Source of the DNA: a virus
Taxonomy: Duplodnaviria > Caudoviricetes
DNA length: 62,833 nucleotides
Direction: 5' to 3' (one strand)
IMG/VR virus record: IMGVR_UViG_3300033144_005983
Location: 1-62,833 of that record
Part shown: piece by piece, positions 1 to 47,526 of the stretch
Layout: each line of letters opens with the position of its first letter
How positions within the stretch are numbered: position 1 is the stretch's first letter
Notes under the pieces: generated by a model
The model's input: only the letters and a program-made list of their open reading frames with translations
Databases searched by the model: none
What the model was told of the DNA's origin: nothing
Position numbers and translations under genes: made by a program

Positions 1-1896
1 AGTGTTCAAGGACATTATGACTATATGAAAGATCTTACAGATATAGGAAAGATGGTTAAACCTGATGTAACTTCAAGACTAGGCGAAGACGGAAAATACT
101 ACTATACAGTAAAAAATACTAACGTATCCAGAGCTAAACTTGAAAGTGCAATAGCAAGTGCAATGCCAGAAGGAGCGAGACAAGCTTTAAAAAATGACTT
201 CTATGTACAAAGAGATAAAGCACAAAGAGCAGGTACTTTAGAAGAGCAACCATACTTAAATGACTTTTATGACTTTGTAAAAGTTAAAGCTGCAGGAGCC
301 GCTACTCCATTTGTACAACATCAGCAAGAAGTTACAGGTAGAGGCATTCTTCCTGAATATACTCAAGGGTTAAAAGATAAAGCAGGAGCAGCTCAGATGA
401 TACAAATGAAAGCTCCTCCAATAAAAGTTGCAGATGGAAGTATAAGTAAGTCACTTAATGATAGAAGGAAAGCAGCAGCAGACCTTAAAGCTATACAAGG
501 ACAACTAGCTAAAACTGGATTTGGCCAACAAAAACTGGATATAAATGATCCTAAAGCTATTGAAGAGTATCTAATACAAAATCCCAATGAGGGAGAGATG
601 CTTATGACTTATAAACAACAGATAGATCAATTAAGTGGAGTAGTAAATAATGAGAATAGTATTCTTAATCAAACTAATAACGCATTTATACAATCCGATC
701 AAGGCAAAGACTACTGGAATAACCAATACAATAAAATTAAGACATTCCATAAAATGGAAAATAATGAGTTTACTTGGCAAGATAAAGACGGTAAAGAAAG
801 AAAAGCAACTATAAATAGTGGAGAAGACTTAATGAACTTCATGGTAAATGGTAAAGCAAATGTTGAAGATGAATATGATTGGTATGATGAAATAAATCCA
901 TTTAGTTCAAACTTCTGGATGGGTACAACACGACAAGCAGCAAGTGCAGTAGCAGGTCCAGACACATTTACAAAACGTATTCCTAAAACAAGTCATGGAG
1001 AATATATGTTACAAGAATTATTAGACAATGTAACAACAGAACTTCAAGACTATGCTGAAAATGAAGATATAACGAGTAATTTAAATCTTCTAGCAGGTCC
1101 TAAAGATTCAGCTATTGGACAACAGCAAGAAATGGTTCATAAAATTCTTCAAGAAGGTCAGGGACAATTTTTCTCTGCTAATGATGCAACTCCTTTAAGA
1201 GACTTAATCCAAGACCAAAAGGTTAAATGGGATGACGTAAGAAAAAGAACAGAAGTAAATCTAACAGATGGTGTAGGTAAAAATGGATTACCTATGGTAT
1301 GGATAACTGCTTATAATAAAGACGGGACAAAGAAAATAGTAGATCAAGCATTTGAAATGCAAACACAAGATGCTTCTCTAACTAACTTTTTAGCCGATCA
1401 GTCAATTGCAGCAGGGCTTGCAAAAAACAATCCCGCATTTGTAAGAAGCGGAGAAACTATGAAAGCAAGACATCTTAAAGATTCTTTACGTGGCACTAAT
1501 CTATATGATACTATAGGCAATGCCAAACTTATCCAGAATTCTCCTACTAGAGATGAAAGAGAAATACAATATATCCAAAGAGGAGTTCCAGGACATCCTA
1601 ACCTTGCTTTAAAAGCAACAGCCTTAACAGGAAGTTTGGTATATACCTTAATGCAACCTGTTCCTAATCAAGAAGGAGAATGGATGCCTGTTAAACATAG
1701 AGAAATAAATGAACAAGGAGAACTACTATCAAGTGACCAGGTAGATACAAGACTTTCACCTGAATTAAAAAGTGTGTCTGCAACTAATATGGCAGCATTA
1801 TCTTGGATGTGGTGGAAATACAAACCAGAAAATCATGGAGAAAGAGCTATCTTTGATCCAGTAACTAATAGATTTAAATATTTACCAGCAGAATAA
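1..1896 (+). CDS. Virion cargo/ejection protein, probably 5'-truncated
   Basis: Frame is open from base 1 (AGT GTT CAA...), so the ORF likely starts outside the window. It lies directly upstream of the giant vRNAP gene, where crAss-like phages encode ejected core proteins. No catalytic motif recognised. Confidence 0.55.
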   Translation, partial: SVQGHYDYMKDLTDIGKMVKPDVTSRLGEDGKYYYTVKNTNVSRAKLESAIASAMPEGARQALKNDFYVQRDKAQRAGTLEEQPYLNDFYDFVKVKAAGAATPFVQHQQEVTGRGILPEYTQGLKDKAGAAQMIQMKAPPIKVADGSISKSLNDRRKAAADLKAIQGQLAKTGFGQQKLDINDPKAIEEYLIQNPNEGEMLMTYKQQIDQLSGVVNNENSILNQTNNAFIQSDQGKDYWNNQYNKIKTFHKMENNEFTWQDKDGKERKATINSGEDLMNFMVNGKANVEDEYDWYDEINPFSSNFWMGTTRQAASAVAGPDTFTKRIPKTSHGEYMLQELLDNVTTELQDYAENEDITSNLNLLAGPKDSAIGQQQEMVHKILQEGQGQFFSANDATPLRDLIQDQKVKWDDVRKRTEVNLTDGVGKNGLPMVWITAYNKDGTKKIVDQAFEMQTQDASLTNFLADQSIAAGLAKNNPAFVRSGETMKARHLKDSLRGTNLYDTIGNAKLIQNSPTRDEREIQYIQRGVPGHPNLALKATALTGSLVYTLMQPVPNQEGEWMPVKHREINEQGELLSSDQVDTRLSPELKSVSATNMAALSWMWWKYKPENHGERAIFDPVTNRFKYLPAE

Positions 1897-42028: not shown

Positions 42029-42049
42029 ACTTATTTCAATTTAAAAAAA

Positions 42050-42235
42050 ACACATGAAGATTATCTTTTACACTTAAAAGCGGTTTAGAAGTCCTCTCGA
42101 GTTAAAACAGAGGATCAGGGAGCTCACAAACAGATTCTGTATACAAAATCAAGTAACCCAGTTACTCGTGGAAGCTATAATCGTGTGATTCCTACTAGGA
42201 GTCTATGTTGTCTTAAGAGATAATCGTTCACGTGT
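42050..42235 (-). ncRNA. Candidate ~185-nt structured RNA closed by a long terminal stem
   Basis: ACACGTGAA..ATTATCT / AGATAAT.TTCATGTGT terminal pairing, internal hairpins, U8 tail, no ORF. Confidence 0.5.
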
Positions 42236-42250
42236 AATTTACTAATTATT

Positions 42251-42355
42251 TTAAAACAATCCTACATGATCTAGTATAACAACTATCGTAAAGATACCCA
42301 TCATAACCACAAATAATGCAGAACCTGTTTCAAACCATTCTATTAATTGTTTCAT
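42251..42355 (-). CDS. 34-aa membrane peptide
   Basis: MKQLIEWFETGSALFVVMMGIFTIVVILDHVGLF; ATGA overlap with the upstream gene. Confidence 0.5.
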   Translation of the reverse strand: MKQLIEWFETGSALFVVMMGIFTIVVILDHVGLF

Positions 42356-42630: not shown

Positions 42631-43074
42631 TTATAGTTTTATATCAAATCTATCCTTTTGTTTCTCTACTATATCAGTAGATATTCCATGCAAAGAATTA
42701 GATTGATGTCGGTTTTCAATAATAATATGTGTTACTTTATAACCATATTTAACTGCAAGCATCTCATACGCTTTAAATTCCCAAGCTCTTGTAAAAGTAT
42801 TATGAATCATAATCAATGCACTTACCTTAAGATCATGAGCTTTTAACATATTATGCTCGCATTTGTCTTCACAATATTTATGAGCTTCATTTAACTGAAA
42901 GGCATCAAACTTATATATACCTTTATCATCAGTAAAATAATCATCAGCACATATATTTGTAATAATACTTCCTTCTTTATGTGGACCATCAATTCCAAAG
43001 TTTGCCAACATATTTACAAATGTTGTCTTACCTGCACCTGATGCACCTCTAACTAAAATAAGTTCCTTTTTCAT
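42631..43074 (-). CDS. P-loop kinase (AAA_33 / polynucleotide-kinase-like)
   Basis: LVRGASGAGKTT, ICADDYF, AHKYC, HNTF..WE, HG.....VEKQ..RF. Confidence 0.85.
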   Translation of the reverse strand: MKKELILVRGASGAGKTTFVNMLANFGIDGPHKEGSIITNICADDYFTDDKGIYKFDAFQLNEAHKYCEDKCEHNMLKAHDLKVSALIMIHNTFTRAWEFKAYEMLAVKYGYKVTHIIIENRHQSNSLHGISTDIVEKQKDRFDIKL

Positions 43075-43871: not shown

Positions 43872-44405
43872 CTAGCCATTAAAACCTGCAGCTGACTCTG
43901 CTTCCACAGATGCTTCAAGTTTAATATCAGGTGTAGTTTCAGAACTGGTAGCTTCACTCATTAAAGTGTGACCCGCTCTGCTGAACAACTGGACGATGTT
44001 CTCACCTTTCAATGCAACGCAAGTATAAGAAGTAACTTCCCTTTCAGTACCATCCTGAGATGTTACAGCGTAAGCTTCAACTTCTTTTGTTACTATTGCA
44101 CCAGGTAATGCCTTACCAACATAATTTTTGATCATTGAAGGATCTCCTCCTTTCCAGATAGAGTTTCCATTACTATCAAACTGTTGACTGATTACTCTGA
44201 ATCTAGTAGATTGAAATGGATTATCCAAATCTTGGAAAATAGCAAGGTAATACTTTCTACCATCGCTTGTCTCATTGATCTTGCCATTAAGGCCTTTAAT
44301 ACCAGTAGTATCAGAGTCATCTAATACTGTAGCATTTGGATTGCTCGAAAGAGTAATCCCTACCAACTTAATTTGTTGGCCCTCATTTACGAATTCTGCA
44401 CTCAT
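43872..44405 (-). CDS. Hypothetical early protein
   Basis: 177-aa ORF, beta-rich, acidic tail. Confidence 0.8.
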   Translation of the reverse strand: MSAEFVNEGQQIKLVGITLSSNPNATVLDDSDTTGIKGLNGKINETSDGRKYYLAIFQDLDNPFQSTRFRVISQQFDSNGNSIWKGGDPSMIKNYVGKALPGAIVTKEVEAYAVTSQDGTEREVTSYTCVALKGENIVQLFSRAGHTLMSEATSSETTPDIKLEASVEAESAAGFNG

Positions 44406-44563
44406 AATTTAAGAATTTAAAAATTAAAAAATATAAAAAGAAGTTATTAGTATGCATACGCATAGTCTATCTCACCACATAAAGGTTAACTCCATGAGAT
44501 AGATTTCAGGGATAATAAAATCCCTAGGTATTTCAACCTATTCTTGAATGTAACAAATCAATT

Positions 44564-44839
44564 TCATTCTGGAAGTGGAAGTCCCATCTCTACACAATCT
44601 GTAACGTTTTTAGGTACACCAAAGAAATTAAACTTTAAAGCTATTTCTGCTAAAGTCAATCCTTCTGCGTAGTAATCTCGTGCCAGATAATCAGTCCTAT
44701 TGGATTTCCATTCGATTAACTGTTGGTCAGCGTCTTCGATATCATGATCATATATTTGGTAAAAATACTCACCTAATGGGCGATCATACCCATATACAAA
44801 TTCTAAATTGCCCTTATGTATAGTATATCTACTCATCAT
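44564..44839 (-). CDS. Hypothetical phage protein
   Basis: VYGYDRPLGEYFYQIYD motif. Confidence 0.7.
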   Translation of the reverse strand: MMSRYTIHKGNLEFVYGYDRPLGEYFYQIYDHDIEDADQQLIEWKSNRTDYLARDYYAEGLTLAEIALKFNFFGVPKNVTDCVEMGLPLPE

Positions 44840-45143
44840 TCATATTCTTTTTAGCCTGAGCATACTTGATTGGAAGCGCTAATTCTGGATTCCATGGATG
44901 TTTAAGTAATCCTTCTTCTTCGGATGTATCTTCAGCTTGCATTAAAAGAATAGCTTCATGATCAAGTCCCCATAGAACTTCATCATGTGATAATGTTATA
45001 GCACGTGCTAAATCTATATCAGGGTTATTTTTTACTATAATAAGTGCTAGTAACACTACTTCAGGTGCTAATTTATATTTGGATGCTTCTTTAAGCACAC
45101 CAATAACAACTGATAAAGGATCTATTTCTTCGAGTTCTTTCAT
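44829..45143 (-). CDS. Hypothetical protein
   Basis: 104-aa ORF. Confidence 0.7.
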   Translation of the reverse strand: MKELEEIDPLSVVIGVLKEASKYKLAPEVVLLALIIVKNNPDIDLARAITLSHDEVLWGLDHEAILLMQAEDTSEEEGLLKHPWNPELALPIKYAQAKKNMNDE

Positions 45144-45174
45144 TTCATCGGTTTTAAAGGTAAAAAAATAAAAA

Positions 45175-45865
45175 GTGATAGGTATAGCTTGAGATTACAG
45201 CCCTATCTGGTCAGTCTTTAGTTAGCTTATTTCCATCCTGTCAAGGTGGTTACTAACATATCCACTCTGTTTGCACAAAGTAACTGCCAATGGCGATTGG
45301 TAAAGCCAATCATTCTTAACGTCATCACCTACTCAAATCATAATAAGTTCAATTATAGGACGGCCATCCCATTATTGACCTTTCTGATCCAAACAACAGC
45401 TACCTTGCGAGTAACTGAAGCACTATGTTCACCGAAGTGCATAGTATTAGCCATCTTTCGATGAATAACGCCAAAGTAATTTTGCTCTCTTTTTGAAAGA
45501 CTTCCCAATTGAATAACAGCTCCTTTGGATAAGCTCCATTCTCTTTTGAAGAACAGAATACTTAACTGTTATTTGTAATGCTATCAACATCACGGTACAG
45601 AGTTATACTCAAGAGCATATCGTTGTACTGAAGTGTACTCCTCCTAGACTGATAAAATCTGATCGGAACCACCCCTTGCAAGCTTACCTATTGTCATCGC
45701 TGACTCAACTCTGATTGGGCATCAGAATAGAAACGCTAAGGATTTCCCCATTGTTTCCGTCACTTGGATGTTTAGATTGACCATATTGCTATGGCAACAA
45801 AGAAAGAGCTCTATAACCCTTGCAGTGTCTTTATACTCTATTGCTAGAGTTATCGCGCTAAACCG
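45175..45865 (-). ncRNA. Large ornate structured RNA, GOLLD-like (~690 nt)
   Basis: No credible ORF. Many minus-strand tetraloop hairpins: ACUCUA-GCAA-UAGAGU, CCAUA-GCAA-UAUGG, CAUC-GAAA-GAUG, CAC-UUCG-GUG, ACUUUGU-GCAA-ACAGAGU. The 3' end GCUGUAAUCUCAAGC resembles GOLLD 3' ends as I recall them, and is followed by a U-run. Adjacent to a tRNA-like gene. Confidence 0.7.
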
Positions 45866-45870
45866 CGTAG

Positions 45871-45950
45871 TGGAGATGGATGGAATCGAACCATCGTCTT
45901 GAATGTGCTCATAATAAGCCCTGCATTCAGTCAATGCCTGAATCATCCCC
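45871..45950 (-). ncRNA. ssrA: Minimal tmRNA: tRNA-like domain only, no mRNA-like/tag domain
   Basis: GGGGAUG/CAUCUCC acceptor stem with G3-U70 and A73; stemless D-loop AUUCAGGCAUUGAC; helix UGAAUG/CAUUCA; GAC; T-arm GAUGG-UUCGAUU-CCAUC. Confidence 0.8.
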
Positions 45951-46288
45951 ATAATTTATAAAGTTACGATATTGTAACTTACATTCCTATATGATAAAGA
46001 TAAGAATATTCAGTGCATCCTCTAGAAGATACAACTGAACATACCTTACCTATAAAAAGATAGCCCACGGAGCTTATGTCTAATGCATCAGACATTACTT
46101 CAATGTGCAGAGTGTCCCAGGATTACGCAACTGCATTCCTATTCCCCTTTTGTTTGGCTTTAATGATATTTGACTGTGCAAATACCAAAACCTTTCTATT
46201 ATTATAAACAAAAGCACTCTCTTTTTACTGTATACCTGGTCGTCATACCATATCGACCAAAGGTAATTGCTAATACTGTTAACAATAA

Positions 46289-46338
46289 CGCCAGTAGCTT
46301 ACTGGATAGTTACGAGGTTTTCGAAATCGTAACAATAC
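46289..46338. repeat. 50-nt double-hairpin motif, copy 1
   Basis: Second copy at 48744-48793; three compensatory base-pair changes. Confidence 0.85.
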
Positions 46339-46507
46339 GTTTTCAATCTTAAGGCGATTGAATAAATTTTCTAGTCTCCGTCTTTTCATACTCATGCTAA
46401 AACCTTATTGTATGTAACGCTTTACATAAATATATCTTCGTTCTCTCATCAATACAATGAGCTTTTTTAAAAGATATAACCTAGACAATGTAAACAGAGC
46501 AACTTGA

Positions 46508-46624
46508 TTACATTCCTTGACTTGCTCCATATAAAAATAAAGCAAGTATAGTTATTGGGTTAGCTATCACAAATAATGTAATAACTACTACCCAATACAA
46601 ATACTTATTTCTAATCTTGATCAT
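46508..46624 (-). CDS. 38-aa membrane peptide
   Basis: MIKIRNKYLYWVVVITLFVIANPITILALFLYGASQGM; ATGA overlap. Confidence 0.5.
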   Translation of the reverse strand: MIKIRNKYLYWVVVITLFVIANPITILALFLYGASQGM

Positions 46625-46815
46625 ATCTTTATTCTCTTAGATGGTGACTTTTCTATTTCTAGTTGCCAACATAAAAATGGTAAAATAAAAATAAATTCAA
46701 GATCTCTAGGATCTTTTTGGAAACATATTCCAAAAGCTAATCCCCAATAAAACTCTCTTTTAAGAGTAATCTGTCTATTATTAATAGACGCATTTATTAC
46801 AGTTTTCTGACTCAT
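46621..46815 (-). CDS. Hypothetical protein
   Basis: 64-aa ORF with ATGA overlaps on both sides. Confidence 0.6.
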   Translation of the reverse strand: MSQKTVINASINNRQITLKREFYWGLAFGICFQKDPRDLEFIFILPFLCWQLEIEKSPSKRIKI

Positions 46816-47024
46816 AAACTATCGGTTTTAAAATTGTGTGAATCAATAAAATATCCATGAAGATCTTCAAATTCTTCTTGCGATATACTCAATACTCCTG
46901 TTTGATCAGGAAGTTTAGGACTTGAATGCTTAACTGCTTGTTTAGCAGTACCACATCCAATTCCAATAAACATTAGGATGACAACTATCTTAGTCATTAC
47001 TTCTACAATCTTCACTGTAGGCAC
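46812..47024 (-). CDS. Small lipoprotein-like protein
   Basis: Hydrophobic signal ending IGIGC; the true start may be the downstream Met (MTKIVV). Confidence 0.55.
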   Translation of the reverse strand: MPTVKIVEVMTKIVVILMFIGIGCGTAKQAVKHSSPKLPDQTGVLSISQEEFEDLHGYFIDSHNFKTDSL

Positions 47025-47241
47025 AAGCCATACATATGTGCATAAATAAAAGAATAAAAGATAGACCGCACCAAACTCCAGCTAATCCCTGAATTTCATG
47101 CATATATTCCCATCCAAATAAAAAACCTATTATAATAGCTAGTAGTTTACCAACTATAACAACAGAAAATGGTGTGCTTAATAAAATAAGCGATACTTTA
47201 AAGACTTCATTGAAGTCACGGTTTTTGCTATATCTAGCCAT
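46990..47241 (-). CDS. Two-TM membrane protein
   Basis: Two hydrophobic segments. Confidence 0.65.
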   Translation of the reverse strand: MARYSKNRDFNEVFKVSLILLSTPFSVVIVGKLLAIIIGFLFGWEYMHEIQGLAGVWCGLSFILLFMHICMACAYSEDCRSND

Positions 47242-47274
47242 GTGTGTGTGATTTAAAGATTAAAAATTAAAAAA

Positions 47275-47526
47275 TTAATACATTACTATACCATTAATAG
47301 TTATTTCAACTGGACCTTTAATGCCCAATCTAGTTTTATTTTGGTATACATATTTACCCACAATTAATTTAGCGTACACGGGGTTATTTGCACATTTAAC
47401 ATATTCAGTCTCATTATCAAGACTAGGATTCCATCCAAACTTTTTCCCATTTGCATCAGTAATTGTTGCAAAATCAGGATACACGTCAAGACCAAACCCT
47501 TTCACTTTACTTTGTCCAAATTGCAT
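47275..47526 (-). CDS. Hypothetical protein
   Basis: 83-aa ORF preceded by the shared leader motif. Confidence 0.7.
   Translation of the reverse strand: MQFGQSKVKGFGLDVYPDFATITDANGKKFGWNPSLDNETEYVKCANNPVYAKLIVGKYVYQNKTRLGIKGPVEITINGIVMY

What the first reader, a model, noticed from the sequence alone, without database searches (positions are those of the whole stretch)
45175..45865. ~690-nt GOLLD-like giant RNA starting right after the mini-tmRNA
Seen: an ORF-free, GC-elevated segment with at least six GNRA/UUCG-capped hairpins, all on the minus strand, a closing GAUAGG/CCUAUC stem and a U-run. It begins within a few nt of the tRNA-like 3' end. Known: GOLLD and ROOL RNAs are large phage-associated ncRNAs of unknown function, often next to tRNA genes. 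The GOLLD match rests on my recall of its 3' motif. Inference: co-transcription, with tRNA-type processing of the mini-tmRNA defining the 5' end of the large RNA.
Basis: partly seen in the sequence, partly recalled or inferred. Interest (0 to 1): 0.8.

Follow-up and report, generated by a model that had tools for sequence, protein, structure and literature searches.

The report
Phage GOLLD RNA beside a mini-tmRNA
This is a genuine member of the known GOLLD family of giant phage RNAs that build RNA-only cages, found here in a marine crAss-like phage and joined directly to a tiny tmRNA-like gene, which is a useful clue to their unknown function rather than a new kind of molecule.

Summary
Window 45867..45186 (minus strand) is a GOLLD RNA. 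Its 3' half matches Rfam RF02032 end to end at 211.6 bits (cut-off 150). Its 294-nt 5' half is a conserved, covarying domain: 80 pairs, 39 with compensatory changes, none of 500 shuffles as high. The window is an uncultured tailed phage record. Its terminase is closest to crAss-like and Flavobacterium phages.

An 83-nt tmRNA acceptor/T-arm-only gene lies at 45950..45868 and ends one base before the first GOLLD helix. The same mini-tmRNA lies upstream on the same strand in 9 of 12 related loci, 0 to 1182 nt away. Only this genome has them touching.

No canonical tRNA gene scores above cut-off in this record or in two near-complete relatives. That differs from the usual tRNA-island setting.

At 682 nt it is a compact GOLLD. 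It lacks one of two adjacent hairpins in the Rfam model and has an invariant self-complementary GGCC loop.

Co-transcription with tRNA-type processing is plausible but untested. Verdict: new member of a known kind, moderate interest.

The parts
45186..45573 (-). GOLLD conserved 3' domain
   Evidence: Rfam RF02032, 211.6 bits (gathering score 150), E 2.1e-58, model 1-416 of 416, not truncated
45574..45867 (-). GOLLD 5' domain, 294 nt, 12 predicted helices
   Evidence: Conserved in 11 related loci. RNAalifold gives 80 pairs, 39 with compensatory changes. 97.1% of cells are paired and 0 of 500 shuffles are as high; slid controls give 3-10 pairs.
45471..45511 (-). Short single-stranded linker between the first 3'-domain hairpin and the rest. 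This is the position where other GOLLDs carry a long disordered linker or embedded tRNAs.
   Evidence: In the Rfam alignment about 33 model positions are absent here. The linker's role comes from passages of PMC12286853 and PMC12990946.
45355..45372 (-). Hairpin with the self-complementary loop UGGCCG (45366..45361). It is a candidate symmetric kissing loop between subunits. The neighbouring second hairpin of the Rfam model is absent.
   Evidence: GGCC is invariant in 9 of 9 full-length homologues, with a covarying stem. The same loop occurs in the distant GOLLD of L094. The deletion of model positions about 251-266 is seen.
45471..45528 (-). Non-nested 6-bp pairing: 45528..45523 (CCAAAG, internal loop of the first 3'-domain hairpin) with 45476..45471 (CUUUGG, 3' end of the linker)
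   Evidence: 6 of 6 pairs change on both sides and 100% are paired. In column-order shuffles, stacks with 3 or more double changes occur 0.125 times per shuffle.
45581..45655 (-). Loop-loop pairing in the 5' domain: 45655..45651 (UUAUC) with 45585..45581 (GAUAG)
   Evidence: 3 of 5 pairs change on both sides and 100% are paired
45289..45455 (-). Long-range 6-bp pairing: 45455..45450 with 45294..45289
   Evidence: 3 of 6 pairs change on both sides and 100% are paired
45770..45863 (-). Possible pairing of the loop of the 5'-terminal hairpin (45863..45858) with 45775..45770
   Evidence: 6 bp are paired in 9 of 9 sequences, but only 2 pairs change on both sides. That is the background level in the shuffle control. 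L293 adds a one-sided change that keeps the pair.
45162..45207 (-). Terminator-like end. The GAUAGG/CCUAUC stem encloses the last GOLLD hairpin and is followed by a U-run.
   Evidence: Coordinates. It is conserved in L093, L142 and L092; other relatives have a different hairpin after the GOLLD end. The consensus scan did not list it.
45868..45950 (-). Mini-tmRNA: the tRNA-like domain of tmRNA without the mRNA-like part
   Evidence: RF00023 scores 44.6 bits (gathering score 47), E 1e-15, with 310 model positions replaced by 18 nt. Relatives score 45.6-55.5 bits. The P2-like and T stems covary. ARAGORN calls nothing.
45951..45990 (-). Conserved upstream element, a candidate promoter of the mini-tmRNA plus GOLLD unit
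   Evidence: It is near-identical in L093 and L142, where it precedes GOLLD by about 50 nt. It is unique in the window. It has no sigma-70 consensus hit. Its function was not tested.
46062..46074 (-). Terminator-like hairpin plus U-run that bounds the unit upstream

Best explanation
Window 45867..45186 (minus strand) encodes a GOLLD RNA of about 682 nt, or about 705 nt to the end of the U-run. The window is an uncultured marine tailed phage related to crAss-like and Flavobacterium phages.

Shown here:
- Family membership of the 3' domain.
- A conserved 5' domain with compensatory base changes.
- At least three covarying non-nested pairings.
- An invariant self-complementary GGCC hairpin loop.
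- Phage context.
- Near-identical sequence in marine RNA libraries.

Inferred from solved GOLLD structures (Kretsch 2025, and the 2026 review of RNA quaternary assemblies): the RNA assembles without protein into a closed dihedral cage. The 3' domains would form the ring and the 5' domains the caps. The GGCC loops would kiss across the equator. It is compact and lacks the second of two adjacent hairpins, as the 700-nt Streptococcus agalactiae GOLLD is described to. I therefore guess a 12-mer rather than a 14-mer (probability 0.4).

Inferred from the layout (probability about 0.6): the mini-tmRNA at 45950..45868 and GOLLD are made as one transcript. It would start from the conserved element at about 45990..45951 and stop at the GAUAGG/CCUAUC hairpin plus U-run. 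RNase P and a tRNA 3'-end nuclease would release the mini-tmRNA and so create the GOLLD 5' end at about 45870-45867.

The biological role of the cage is unknown for the whole family. My best guess is that it acts on the translation apparatus during lytic infection. The reasons are that tRNA-shaped genes are its constant neighbours, that a CDS-less phage tmRNA is reported to inhibit host tmRNA, and that ribosome binding by GOLLD is reported.
For: - Rfam RF02032: 211.6 bits against 150, full model, the only gathering-level hit in 62.8 kb.
- All 10 complete related loci also exceed the cut-off, at 171.8-213.9 bits.
- 5' domain: 80 pairs, 97.1% paired, 39 pairs with double changes. Shuffles give 16.5 +/- 2.5 (0 of 500 as high) and slid controls give 3-10.
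- Non-nested helices: 29 pairs, 100% paired, 14 with double changes (0 of 500 shuffles as high). The scan that found them was checked against column-order shuffles: 15 stacks with 3 or more double changes were observed, against 0.125 per shuffle.
- GGCC loop invariant in 9 of 9 homologues.
- Strand-specific stability: z -3.16 on the minus strand against -0.93 on the plus strand.
- No conserved ORF.
- Phage genes: terminase, portal, DNA polymerase, primase, helicases. The terminase is 36-37% identical to crAss-like and Flavobacterium psychrophilum phages.
- Pieces that are near-identical to the window occur in contigs of RNA libraries from 4 studies. Examples are 167 nt with 1 difference, 124 nt with 1 difference, 92 nt with 0 and 182 nt with 3, all within 45211-45859.
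- Unit layout: same strand and a 0-nt gap, with independent folding of both modules at the junction. A terminator-like hairpin lies upstream at 46074..46062. A conserved element lies directly 5' of the mini-tmRNA.
- The mini-tmRNA lies upstream on the same strand in 9 of 12 loci of this GOLLD subtype.
- Literature, passages read: cage architecture, tRNA neighbourhood, linker tRNAs and ribosome pull-down (PMC12286853; PMC12990946). CDS-less tmRNA of phage DS6A inhibits endogenous tmRNA (PMC11915505).
Against: - No experiment on this RNA exists. Oligomer formation, stoichiometry, transcript ends and processing are all inferred.
- The consensus structures were derived from the same alignments on which pairs were counted. 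The 11-12 sequences fall into about 7 lineages of one phage group.
- The RNA-library evidence comes from assembled contigs. They show neither strand nor ends, and the tool warns that DNA can be present in RNA libraries.
- The 0-nt junction is unique to this genome.
- The closest relative (G001, 97% complete) has no mini-tmRNA, yet it keeps the same upstream element and GOLLD. GOLLD therefore does not need the mini-tmRNA in cis.
- The conserved upstream element has no sigma-70 consensus match.
- My mapping of the GGCC hairpin and the missing hairpin onto the published P21a/P21b is by position in the Rfam model and by text descriptions, not by a structure alignment.
Confidence: 0.85

Rival explanations
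1. The RNA is the same GOLLD, but it is not coupled to the mini-tmRNA. The two genes touch only because an intervening spacer was lost. The GOLLD ends would then be set by its own promoter or by cleavage from a long minus-strand operon transcript, as must happen in relatives.
For: Spacers of 117, 165, 166, 343, 345, 490 and 1182 nt occur in relatives. The mini-tmRNA is absent from G001 (L093), L142 and L157. L093 has the same upstream element followed by about 50 nt and then GOLLD. All genes from about 24 kb to 50 kb are on the minus strand, so read-through transcription is possible.
Against: In this window there is no room for a promoter between 45868 and 45867. Any GOLLD transcript that starts upstream must therefore contain the mini-tmRNA, and a tRNA-like 3' end is a normal nuclease target. 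A terminator-like hairpin at 46074..46062 separates the unit from upstream genes.
Confidence: 0.3
2. The mini-tmRNA stays covalently attached. The functional molecule would be a tmRNA-like-domain plus GOLLD chimera that displays or stores 12-14 tRNA-like domains on the cage. This would parallel the tRNAs embedded in the linker of other GOLLDs.
For: There is a 0-nt gap. The literature notes tRNAs embedded in GOLLD and an 'inhibited storage' idea (PMC12990946; PMC12286853). The encoded 3' end of the mini-tmRNA reads CUA rather than CCA here.
Against: Relatives keep the two genes apart, and four other loci also encode CUA with a free-standing gene. A tRNA-like domain needs a free 3' end to be charged. 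The loop of the 5'-terminal GOLLD hairpin may itself pair inside the 5' domain.
Confidence: 0.1
3. The region is a decaying or non-functional GOLLD remnant.
For: It is shorter than the 833-nt env-38 GOLLD. One model hairpin and most of the linker are missing.
Against: The match to the model is full-length. The helices are kept by compensatory changes across lineages. The same compact form occurs in 10 complete loci. Near-identical sequence occurs in RNA libraries. A 700-nt GOLLD that lacks the same element is reported to assemble (PMC12990946).
Confidence: 0.03
4. The region is protein-coding, or is only a leader of the downstream ORF 45143..44829.
For: Short ORFs of 48-76 aa exist in the region. 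The next ORF starts 19 nt after the U-run.
Against: No frame is kept open among homologues. Indels are not in threes, and substitutions are compensatory in helices. A family-level Rfam match exists.
Confidence: 0.01

Closest known systems
GOLLD RNA (Rfam RF02032; Weinberg et al. 2009, recalled and not read here); cryo-EM structures of env-38 GOLLD (14-mer, 833 nt) and Streptococcus agalactiae GOLLD (12-mer, 700 nt), from passages of PMC12286853 and PMC12990946
   Same: It has the conserved 3' domain over the whole model, and a separate structured 5' domain that varies between lineages. It is phage-encoded and has a tRNA-shaped neighbour. It has a self-complementary hairpin loop at the position where symmetric kissing loops join the two half-cages. 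Like the S. agalactiae RNA it is about 700 nt and lacks the second of the two adjacent hairpins.
   Different: There is no tRNA island. No canonical tRNA scores above cut-off in this record or in two near-complete relatives. The linker is very short, about 41 nt. The 5' domain is 294 nt, and its sequence is not recognisable in the one distant GOLLD at hand, L094. The host phage is crAss-like and marine. 0 of 3 cultured relatives checked have GOLLD. No paper in the library holds both 'GOLLD RNA' and 'crAssphage'.
ROOL RNA
   Same: It is also a large phage-associated RNA near tRNAs that forms an RNA-only cage (PMC12286853).
   Different: It has an unrelated sequence and secondary structure. cmscan of all 4227 Rfam families gave no match other than GOLLD over the region at E up to 5.
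CDS-less tmRNA forms, e.g. that of mycobacteriophage DS6A (PMC11915505, passage read)
   Same: The neighbouring 83-nt gene has the tmRNA acceptor stem, including the G-U third pair, and the T arm. It has no tag reading frame or pseudoknots, and it is phage-encoded.
   Different: It is a different phage group. Here it is linked to a GOLLD gene in 9 of 12 loci. Its activity was not tested.

Membership tests
GOLLD RNA (RF02032) | Conserved 3' domain scores at or above the curated gathering score of the covariance model | tested here: met
   211.6 bits against 150, E 2.1e-58, model 1-416 of 416, no truncation
GOLLD RNA (RF02032) | A structured but less conserved 5' domain lies directly upstream of the 3' domain | tested here: met
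   294 nt, 12 helices, 39 of 80 pairs with compensatory changes, 0 of 500 shuffles as high. It is contiguous with the 3' domain in 11 of 11 loci aligned.
GOLLD RNA (RF02032) | A single-stranded variable linker follows the first 3'-domain hairpin | tested here: met
   Present but short, about 41 nt at 45511..45471. About 33 model positions are absent.
GOLLD RNA (RF02032) | Encoded by a phage or prophage | tested here: met
   Virus record. Terminase, portal and replication genes are present.
GOLLD RNA (RF02032) | Located in or near tRNA genes or arrays. The papers read describe this as frequent, not obligatory. | tested here: not met
   ARAGORN finds 0 genes in the window. RF00005 has no hit above cut-off in G000, G001 (97% complete) or G002 (100% complete). 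Only the tmRNA-like domain is adjacent.
GOLLD RNA (RF02032) | Self-complementary loop able to form the symmetric kissing contact between half-cages | tested here: met
   Loop UGGCCG at 45366..45361. GGCC is invariant in 9 of 9 homologues and the stem covaries. Equating it with the published L21/L21a is my inference.
GOLLD RNA (RF02032) | Protein-free homo-oligomeric cage (12- or 14-mer) | not testable with these tools
   Needs in-vitro transcription plus mass photometry or cryo-EM
GOLLD RNA (RF02032) | Expressed as RNA | tested here: inconclusive
   Near-identical contig pieces occur in RNA libraries of 4 studies. Contigs show neither strand nor ends, and DNA carry-over cannot be excluded.
tmRNA (RF00023), for the neighbouring gene | tRNA-like domain plus an mRNA-like tag region with pseudoknots, scoring above the gathering score | tested here: not met
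   44.6 bits against 47. 310 model positions are replaced by 18 nt and there is no tag frame. It is a tRNA-like-domain-only form. Relatives score 45.6-55.5 bits.
ROOL RNA | Match to the family covariance model | tested here: not met
   No match at E up to 5 in 44000-47500 among all Rfam 15 families. That ROOL is among them is recalled, not checked.

The most novel reading that the evidence does not exclude
In this group of marine crAss-like phages, GOLLD and a CDS-less mini-tmRNA form one conserved two-RNA module that has no tRNA genes around it. The cage would work with, or on, the tmRNA/SmpB ribosome-rescue route. For example, it might carry, store or deliver the alanine-accepting tRNA-like domain, or trap ribosomes. 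In this genome the two RNAs have become a single precursor or even a chimera. If so, the long-unknown function of GOLLD becomes testable through trans-translation assays.
Probability: 0.15. Interest if true: 0.8.

Novelty: new member of a known kind. Interest (0 to 1): 0.42.

Why it matters
GOLLD RNAs are among the largest structured bacterial and phage RNAs. They were recently shown to form RNA-only cages larger than a ribosome, yet their function is unknown.

This locus adds three things:
- A compact, well-delimited natural variant of 682 nt, with a family of 11 relatives. These give a covariation-supported 5'-domain structure and several tertiary or quaternary pairings. They are useful for structure work and for asking what sets the subunit number.
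- GOLLD in crAss-like marine phages that carry no tRNA genes. The tRNA-island association is therefore not required.
- A recurring neighbour, a tag-less mini-tmRNA, which points to ribosome rescue and translation as the process to test.

None of this changes what GOLLD is. It narrows where to look for what it does.

Tried and rejected
- blastn of 45144-46620 against 50,697 phage records: no match.
- Relaxed 3'-motif pattern in viral contigs: 90 stretches. Only L002, L003 and L004 proved to be GOLLD. 12 further candidates, picked by a motif heuristic, gave 0 GOLLD hits by cmscan. The rest were judged by the heuristic only.
- 5'-domain pattern in viral contigs: 10 stretches. 5 were real (L002, L004, L096, L098, L099) and 5 were chance matches in coding sequence.
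5 were real by nhmmer.
- Prokaryote genome scan with the 5'-domain pattern: 0 of 63 real. No host was found this way.
- Mini-tmRNA pattern in prokaryote genomes: 1 hit, in a cyanobacterial MAG. It was not followed.
- Single-sequence nhmmer missed all but close relatives.
- The sigma-70 promoter scan found nothing at the conserved upstream element. The Bacteroidota -7 motif that I compared by eye upstream of the mini-tmRNAs is recalled and only partly matched, so I make no claim from it.
- RNA-library contigs gave no cover on the mini-tmRNA (45866-45952), on the junction or on the flanking ORFs.
- Depth figures of those contigs were not used to rank expression.
- The search 'golld'+'crass' matched plant papers only.
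- PMC7549688 (Morgado 2020) is not held.
- I could not map my helices onto the published P1-P27 numbering. Figures are not held and supplements, which hold the alignments and the env-38 sequence, are closed.
- The pairing 45863..45858 with 45775..45770 and the pairing 45337..45332 with 45193..45188 are fully paired, but they vary too little to count as supported.

Full report
**What is there.** The window is an IMG/VR virus record of 62,833 bases, estimated 67% complete. A cmscan of the whole window against Rfam 15 gives one hit at gathering level. It is GOLLD (RF02032) at 45573..45186 on the minus strand: 211.6 bits against a cut-off of 150, E 2.1e-58, covering model positions 1-416 with no truncation. 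A permissive scan of 44000-47500 adds a tmRNA (RF00023) match at 45950..45868, minus strand. It scores 44.6 bits against a cut-off of 47, E 1e-15. Only the acceptor stem, the first helix and the T arm match, and 310 model positions are replaced by 18 nt. ARAGORN calls no tRNA or tmRNA in the window.

- GC is 0.400 in 45186-45867, against 0.32-0.34 in the flanks.
- Only short ORFs occur, and they are not conserved.
- Five GNRA-capped hairpins have stems of 4 bp or more on the minus strand, and none on the plus strand. Shuffles give 0.63 +/- 0.79, and 0 of 1000 reach 5.
- With stems of 3 bp or more there are nine, including the UUCG cap.
- GAUAGG (45207..45202) and CCUAUC (45182..45177) are followed by a U-run at 45175..45162.
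- The minus strand folds better than its shuffles (z -3.16). The plus strand does not (z -0.93).

**Extent, and the 5' half.** The Rfam model covers only the conserved 3' domain. To test the 294 nt between it and the tmRNA-like gene, I collected relatives with DNA patterns and confirmed them with cmscan or nhmmer. Eleven further loci carry the same kind of GOLLD: L093, L142, L096, L098, L185, L092, L220, L157, L169, L099 and L293. They fall into about seven lineages. All ten loci that are not cut by a contig end score 171.8-213.9 bits on RF02032. Most pattern hits were chance matches, as listed under Tried and rejected.

Sequence conservation begins exactly at window 45867, with a small hairpin whose stem changes by compensatory substitutions in L092 and in the L096 group. 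RNAalifold on 11 sequences predicts 12 helices and 80 pairs, and 39 pairs keep pairing through changes on both sides. Counting gives 97.1% of cells paired. Double changes occur in 39 pairs, against 16.5 +/- 2.5 in shuffles (0 of 500 as high) and 3-10 when partners are slid by 1-3 columns. One caveat applies: the structure was derived from the same alignment, and the sequences are related. No reading frame is kept open among homologues. The 5' half is therefore a conserved structured RNA domain, contiguous with the 3' domain in every locus. This fits the published description of GOLLD as a universally conserved 3' region plus a less conserved 5' region (PMC12286853, passages).

**Higher-order pairings.** I scanned the 9-sequence full-length alignment for non-nested stacks that pair in every sequence. 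The scan was checked with column-order shuffles. Stacks with three or more double changes occur 0.125 times per shuffle, against 15 observed; 12 of the 15 are ordinary nested helices. Three non-nested pairings pass.
- 45528..45523 with 45476..45471: all 6 pairs change on both sides.
- A loop-loop pairing in the 5' domain, 45655..45651 with 45585..45581: 3 of 5 pairs.
- 45455..45450 with 45294..45289: 3 of 6 pairs.

A pairing of the 5'-terminal hairpin loop with 45775..45770 is fully paired, but it varies no more than background. Covariation cannot say whether these contacts lie within one chain or between chains. The published structures contain both kinds, including a loop-loop kiss between 5' domains of neighbouring chains (PMC12990946).

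The hairpin at 45372..45355 has the loop UGGCCG. GGCC is invariant in 9 of 9 homologues while the stem covaries. The distant GOLLD in L094 has the same loop. A self-complementary loop at this place fits the symmetric kissing loops that join the two half-cages. The second hairpin next to it in the Rfam model is absent here. The 700-nt S. agalactiae GOLLD is described as lacking P21b, and it forms a 12-mer rather than the 14-mer of the 833-nt env-38 RNA (PMC12990946). I could not align my helices to the published numbering because figures and supplements are not available, so these equivalences are inferences.

**Context.** PHROGs identifies a terminase large subunit, a portal, a DNA polymerase, a primase, helicases and an exonuclease. 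Nine of the ten small ORFs around the RNA match nothing. The terminase is 36-37% identical to crAss-like phages and to Flavobacterium psychrophilum phages, so a Bacteroidota host is likely but not shown. Three of those cultured relatives have no GOLLD (0 of 3). No canonical tRNA scores above cut-off in this record or in the 97% and 100% complete relatives G001 and G002. This GOLLD subtype therefore lacks the tRNA island that the papers describe as usual. A distant GOLLD (L094, 138 bits) sits in a large tRNA array with a full tmRNA elsewhere in the contig.

**The mini-tmRNA link.** The same 83-nt tRNA-like domain is well conserved, with covarying stems. It lies upstream of GOLLD on the same strand in 9 of 12 loci.

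| Locus | Gap to GOLLD (nt) |
|---|---|
| window | 0 |
| L098 | 117 |
| L293 | about 117 |
| L220 | 165 |
| L092 | 166 |
| L099 | 343 |
| L169 | 345 |
| L185 (weak hit, 22.5 bits) | 490 |
| L096 | 1182 |

- It is absent from the whole G001 record (L093) and from the L142 locus.
- It is also absent from the 979 nt available upstream in L157.
- A pattern scan for the mini-tmRNA alone in viral contigs returned five loci, and all five have GOLLD downstream. All belong to this same phage group, so shared descent may explain the linkage.
- A tag-less tmRNA form is known from mycobacteriophage DS6A and is reported to inhibit the endogenous tmRNA in E. coli (PMC11915505, passage).

**Transcription unit.** Upstream of the mini-tmRNA lies a 40-nt element (45990..45951). 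It is near-identical in L093 and L142, where it precedes GOLLD by about 50 nt, and it is unique in the window. Further upstream is a terminator-like hairpin at 46074..46062. Downstream, the GAUAGG/CCUAUC stem plus U-run closes the unit, and the next ORF starts at 45143. At the junction, the mini-tmRNA acceptor stem and the first two GOLLD hairpins fold as independent modules. One transcript that is then cut by tRNA-processing enzymes is the simplest reading for this genome. It remains an inference.

Contigs of four marine or hydrothermal metatranscriptome libraries from four studies contain pieces near-identical to 45211-45859. This is consistent with expression. Contigs give neither strand nor ends.

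**Verdict.** This is a true GOLLD RNA and a new member of a known family. It has a compact architecture, an unusual phage lineage, no tRNA island and a recurring mini-tmRNA neighbour. The function remains inferred from the family: a self-assembling RNA cage made during infection. The neighbour makes translation and ribosome rescue the most sensible process to test.

Noticed in passing
window 1906-23853 (+): A single ORF of 7315 aa. Pfam finds DUF7831, a 2OG-Fe(II) oxygenase (AlkB-like) domain, AAA_30/PIF1-like helicase motifs and a tRNA-ligase cyclic phosphodiesterase domain. It looks like a giant multi-domain protein with RNA or DNA repair-type modules in a crAss-like phage.
   Followed up: partly
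window about 45981-46510 (-): Relative to the closest relative L093, the window has about 530 extra bases between two copies of a 10-nt direct repeat (AGGAATGTAA). About 106 nt of the extra sequence (around 46335-46240) resemble the sequence directly upstream of GOLLD in L157 (nhmmer E 1e-13). The stretch ends with a terminator-like hairpin at 46074..46062. It may be another small RNA gene or a mobile cassette. One RNA-library contig (X1) covers 46033-46174.
   Followed up: partly
window 42631-43074 (-): A 147-aa P-loop protein matches phage ATPase, polynucleotide kinase and RNA ligase families (PHROGs; Pfam AAA_33). It may be an RNA-repair kinase, 2 kb downstream of GOLLD.
   Followed up: partly
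window 42029-42351 (-): A 320-nt gap with no ORF of 40 aa or more, containing several hairpin-like stretches. It has no Rfam hit at gathering level.
   Followed up: no
L094 1501-2004 (-) and L003: A divergent GOLLD (138.2 bits, below the cut-off of 150) inside a dense tRNA array. It has a tRNA-like insert in its linker, seen as a partial beta_tmRNA hit at 1859-1922. A full-length tmRNA (113 bits) lies about 7 kb away in the same contig.
   Followed up: partly
L099 about 976-1000 (-): This GOLLD lacks about 115 nt, including the first hairpin of the 3' domain. Its close relative L169 keeps that hairpin. It still scores 171.8 bits.
   Followed up: no
L099/L169, L185 and L096, upstream of GOLLD: A shared short hairpin element (stem CCUAU/AUAGG with an AACAA loop) recurs 20-250 nt upstream of GOLLD in three lineages. 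It may be a further conserved signal.
   Followed up: no
L061 195-355 (-): A FuFi-1 RNA (138 bits) in an unrelated viral contig that was fetched by a chance pattern match.
   Followed up: no
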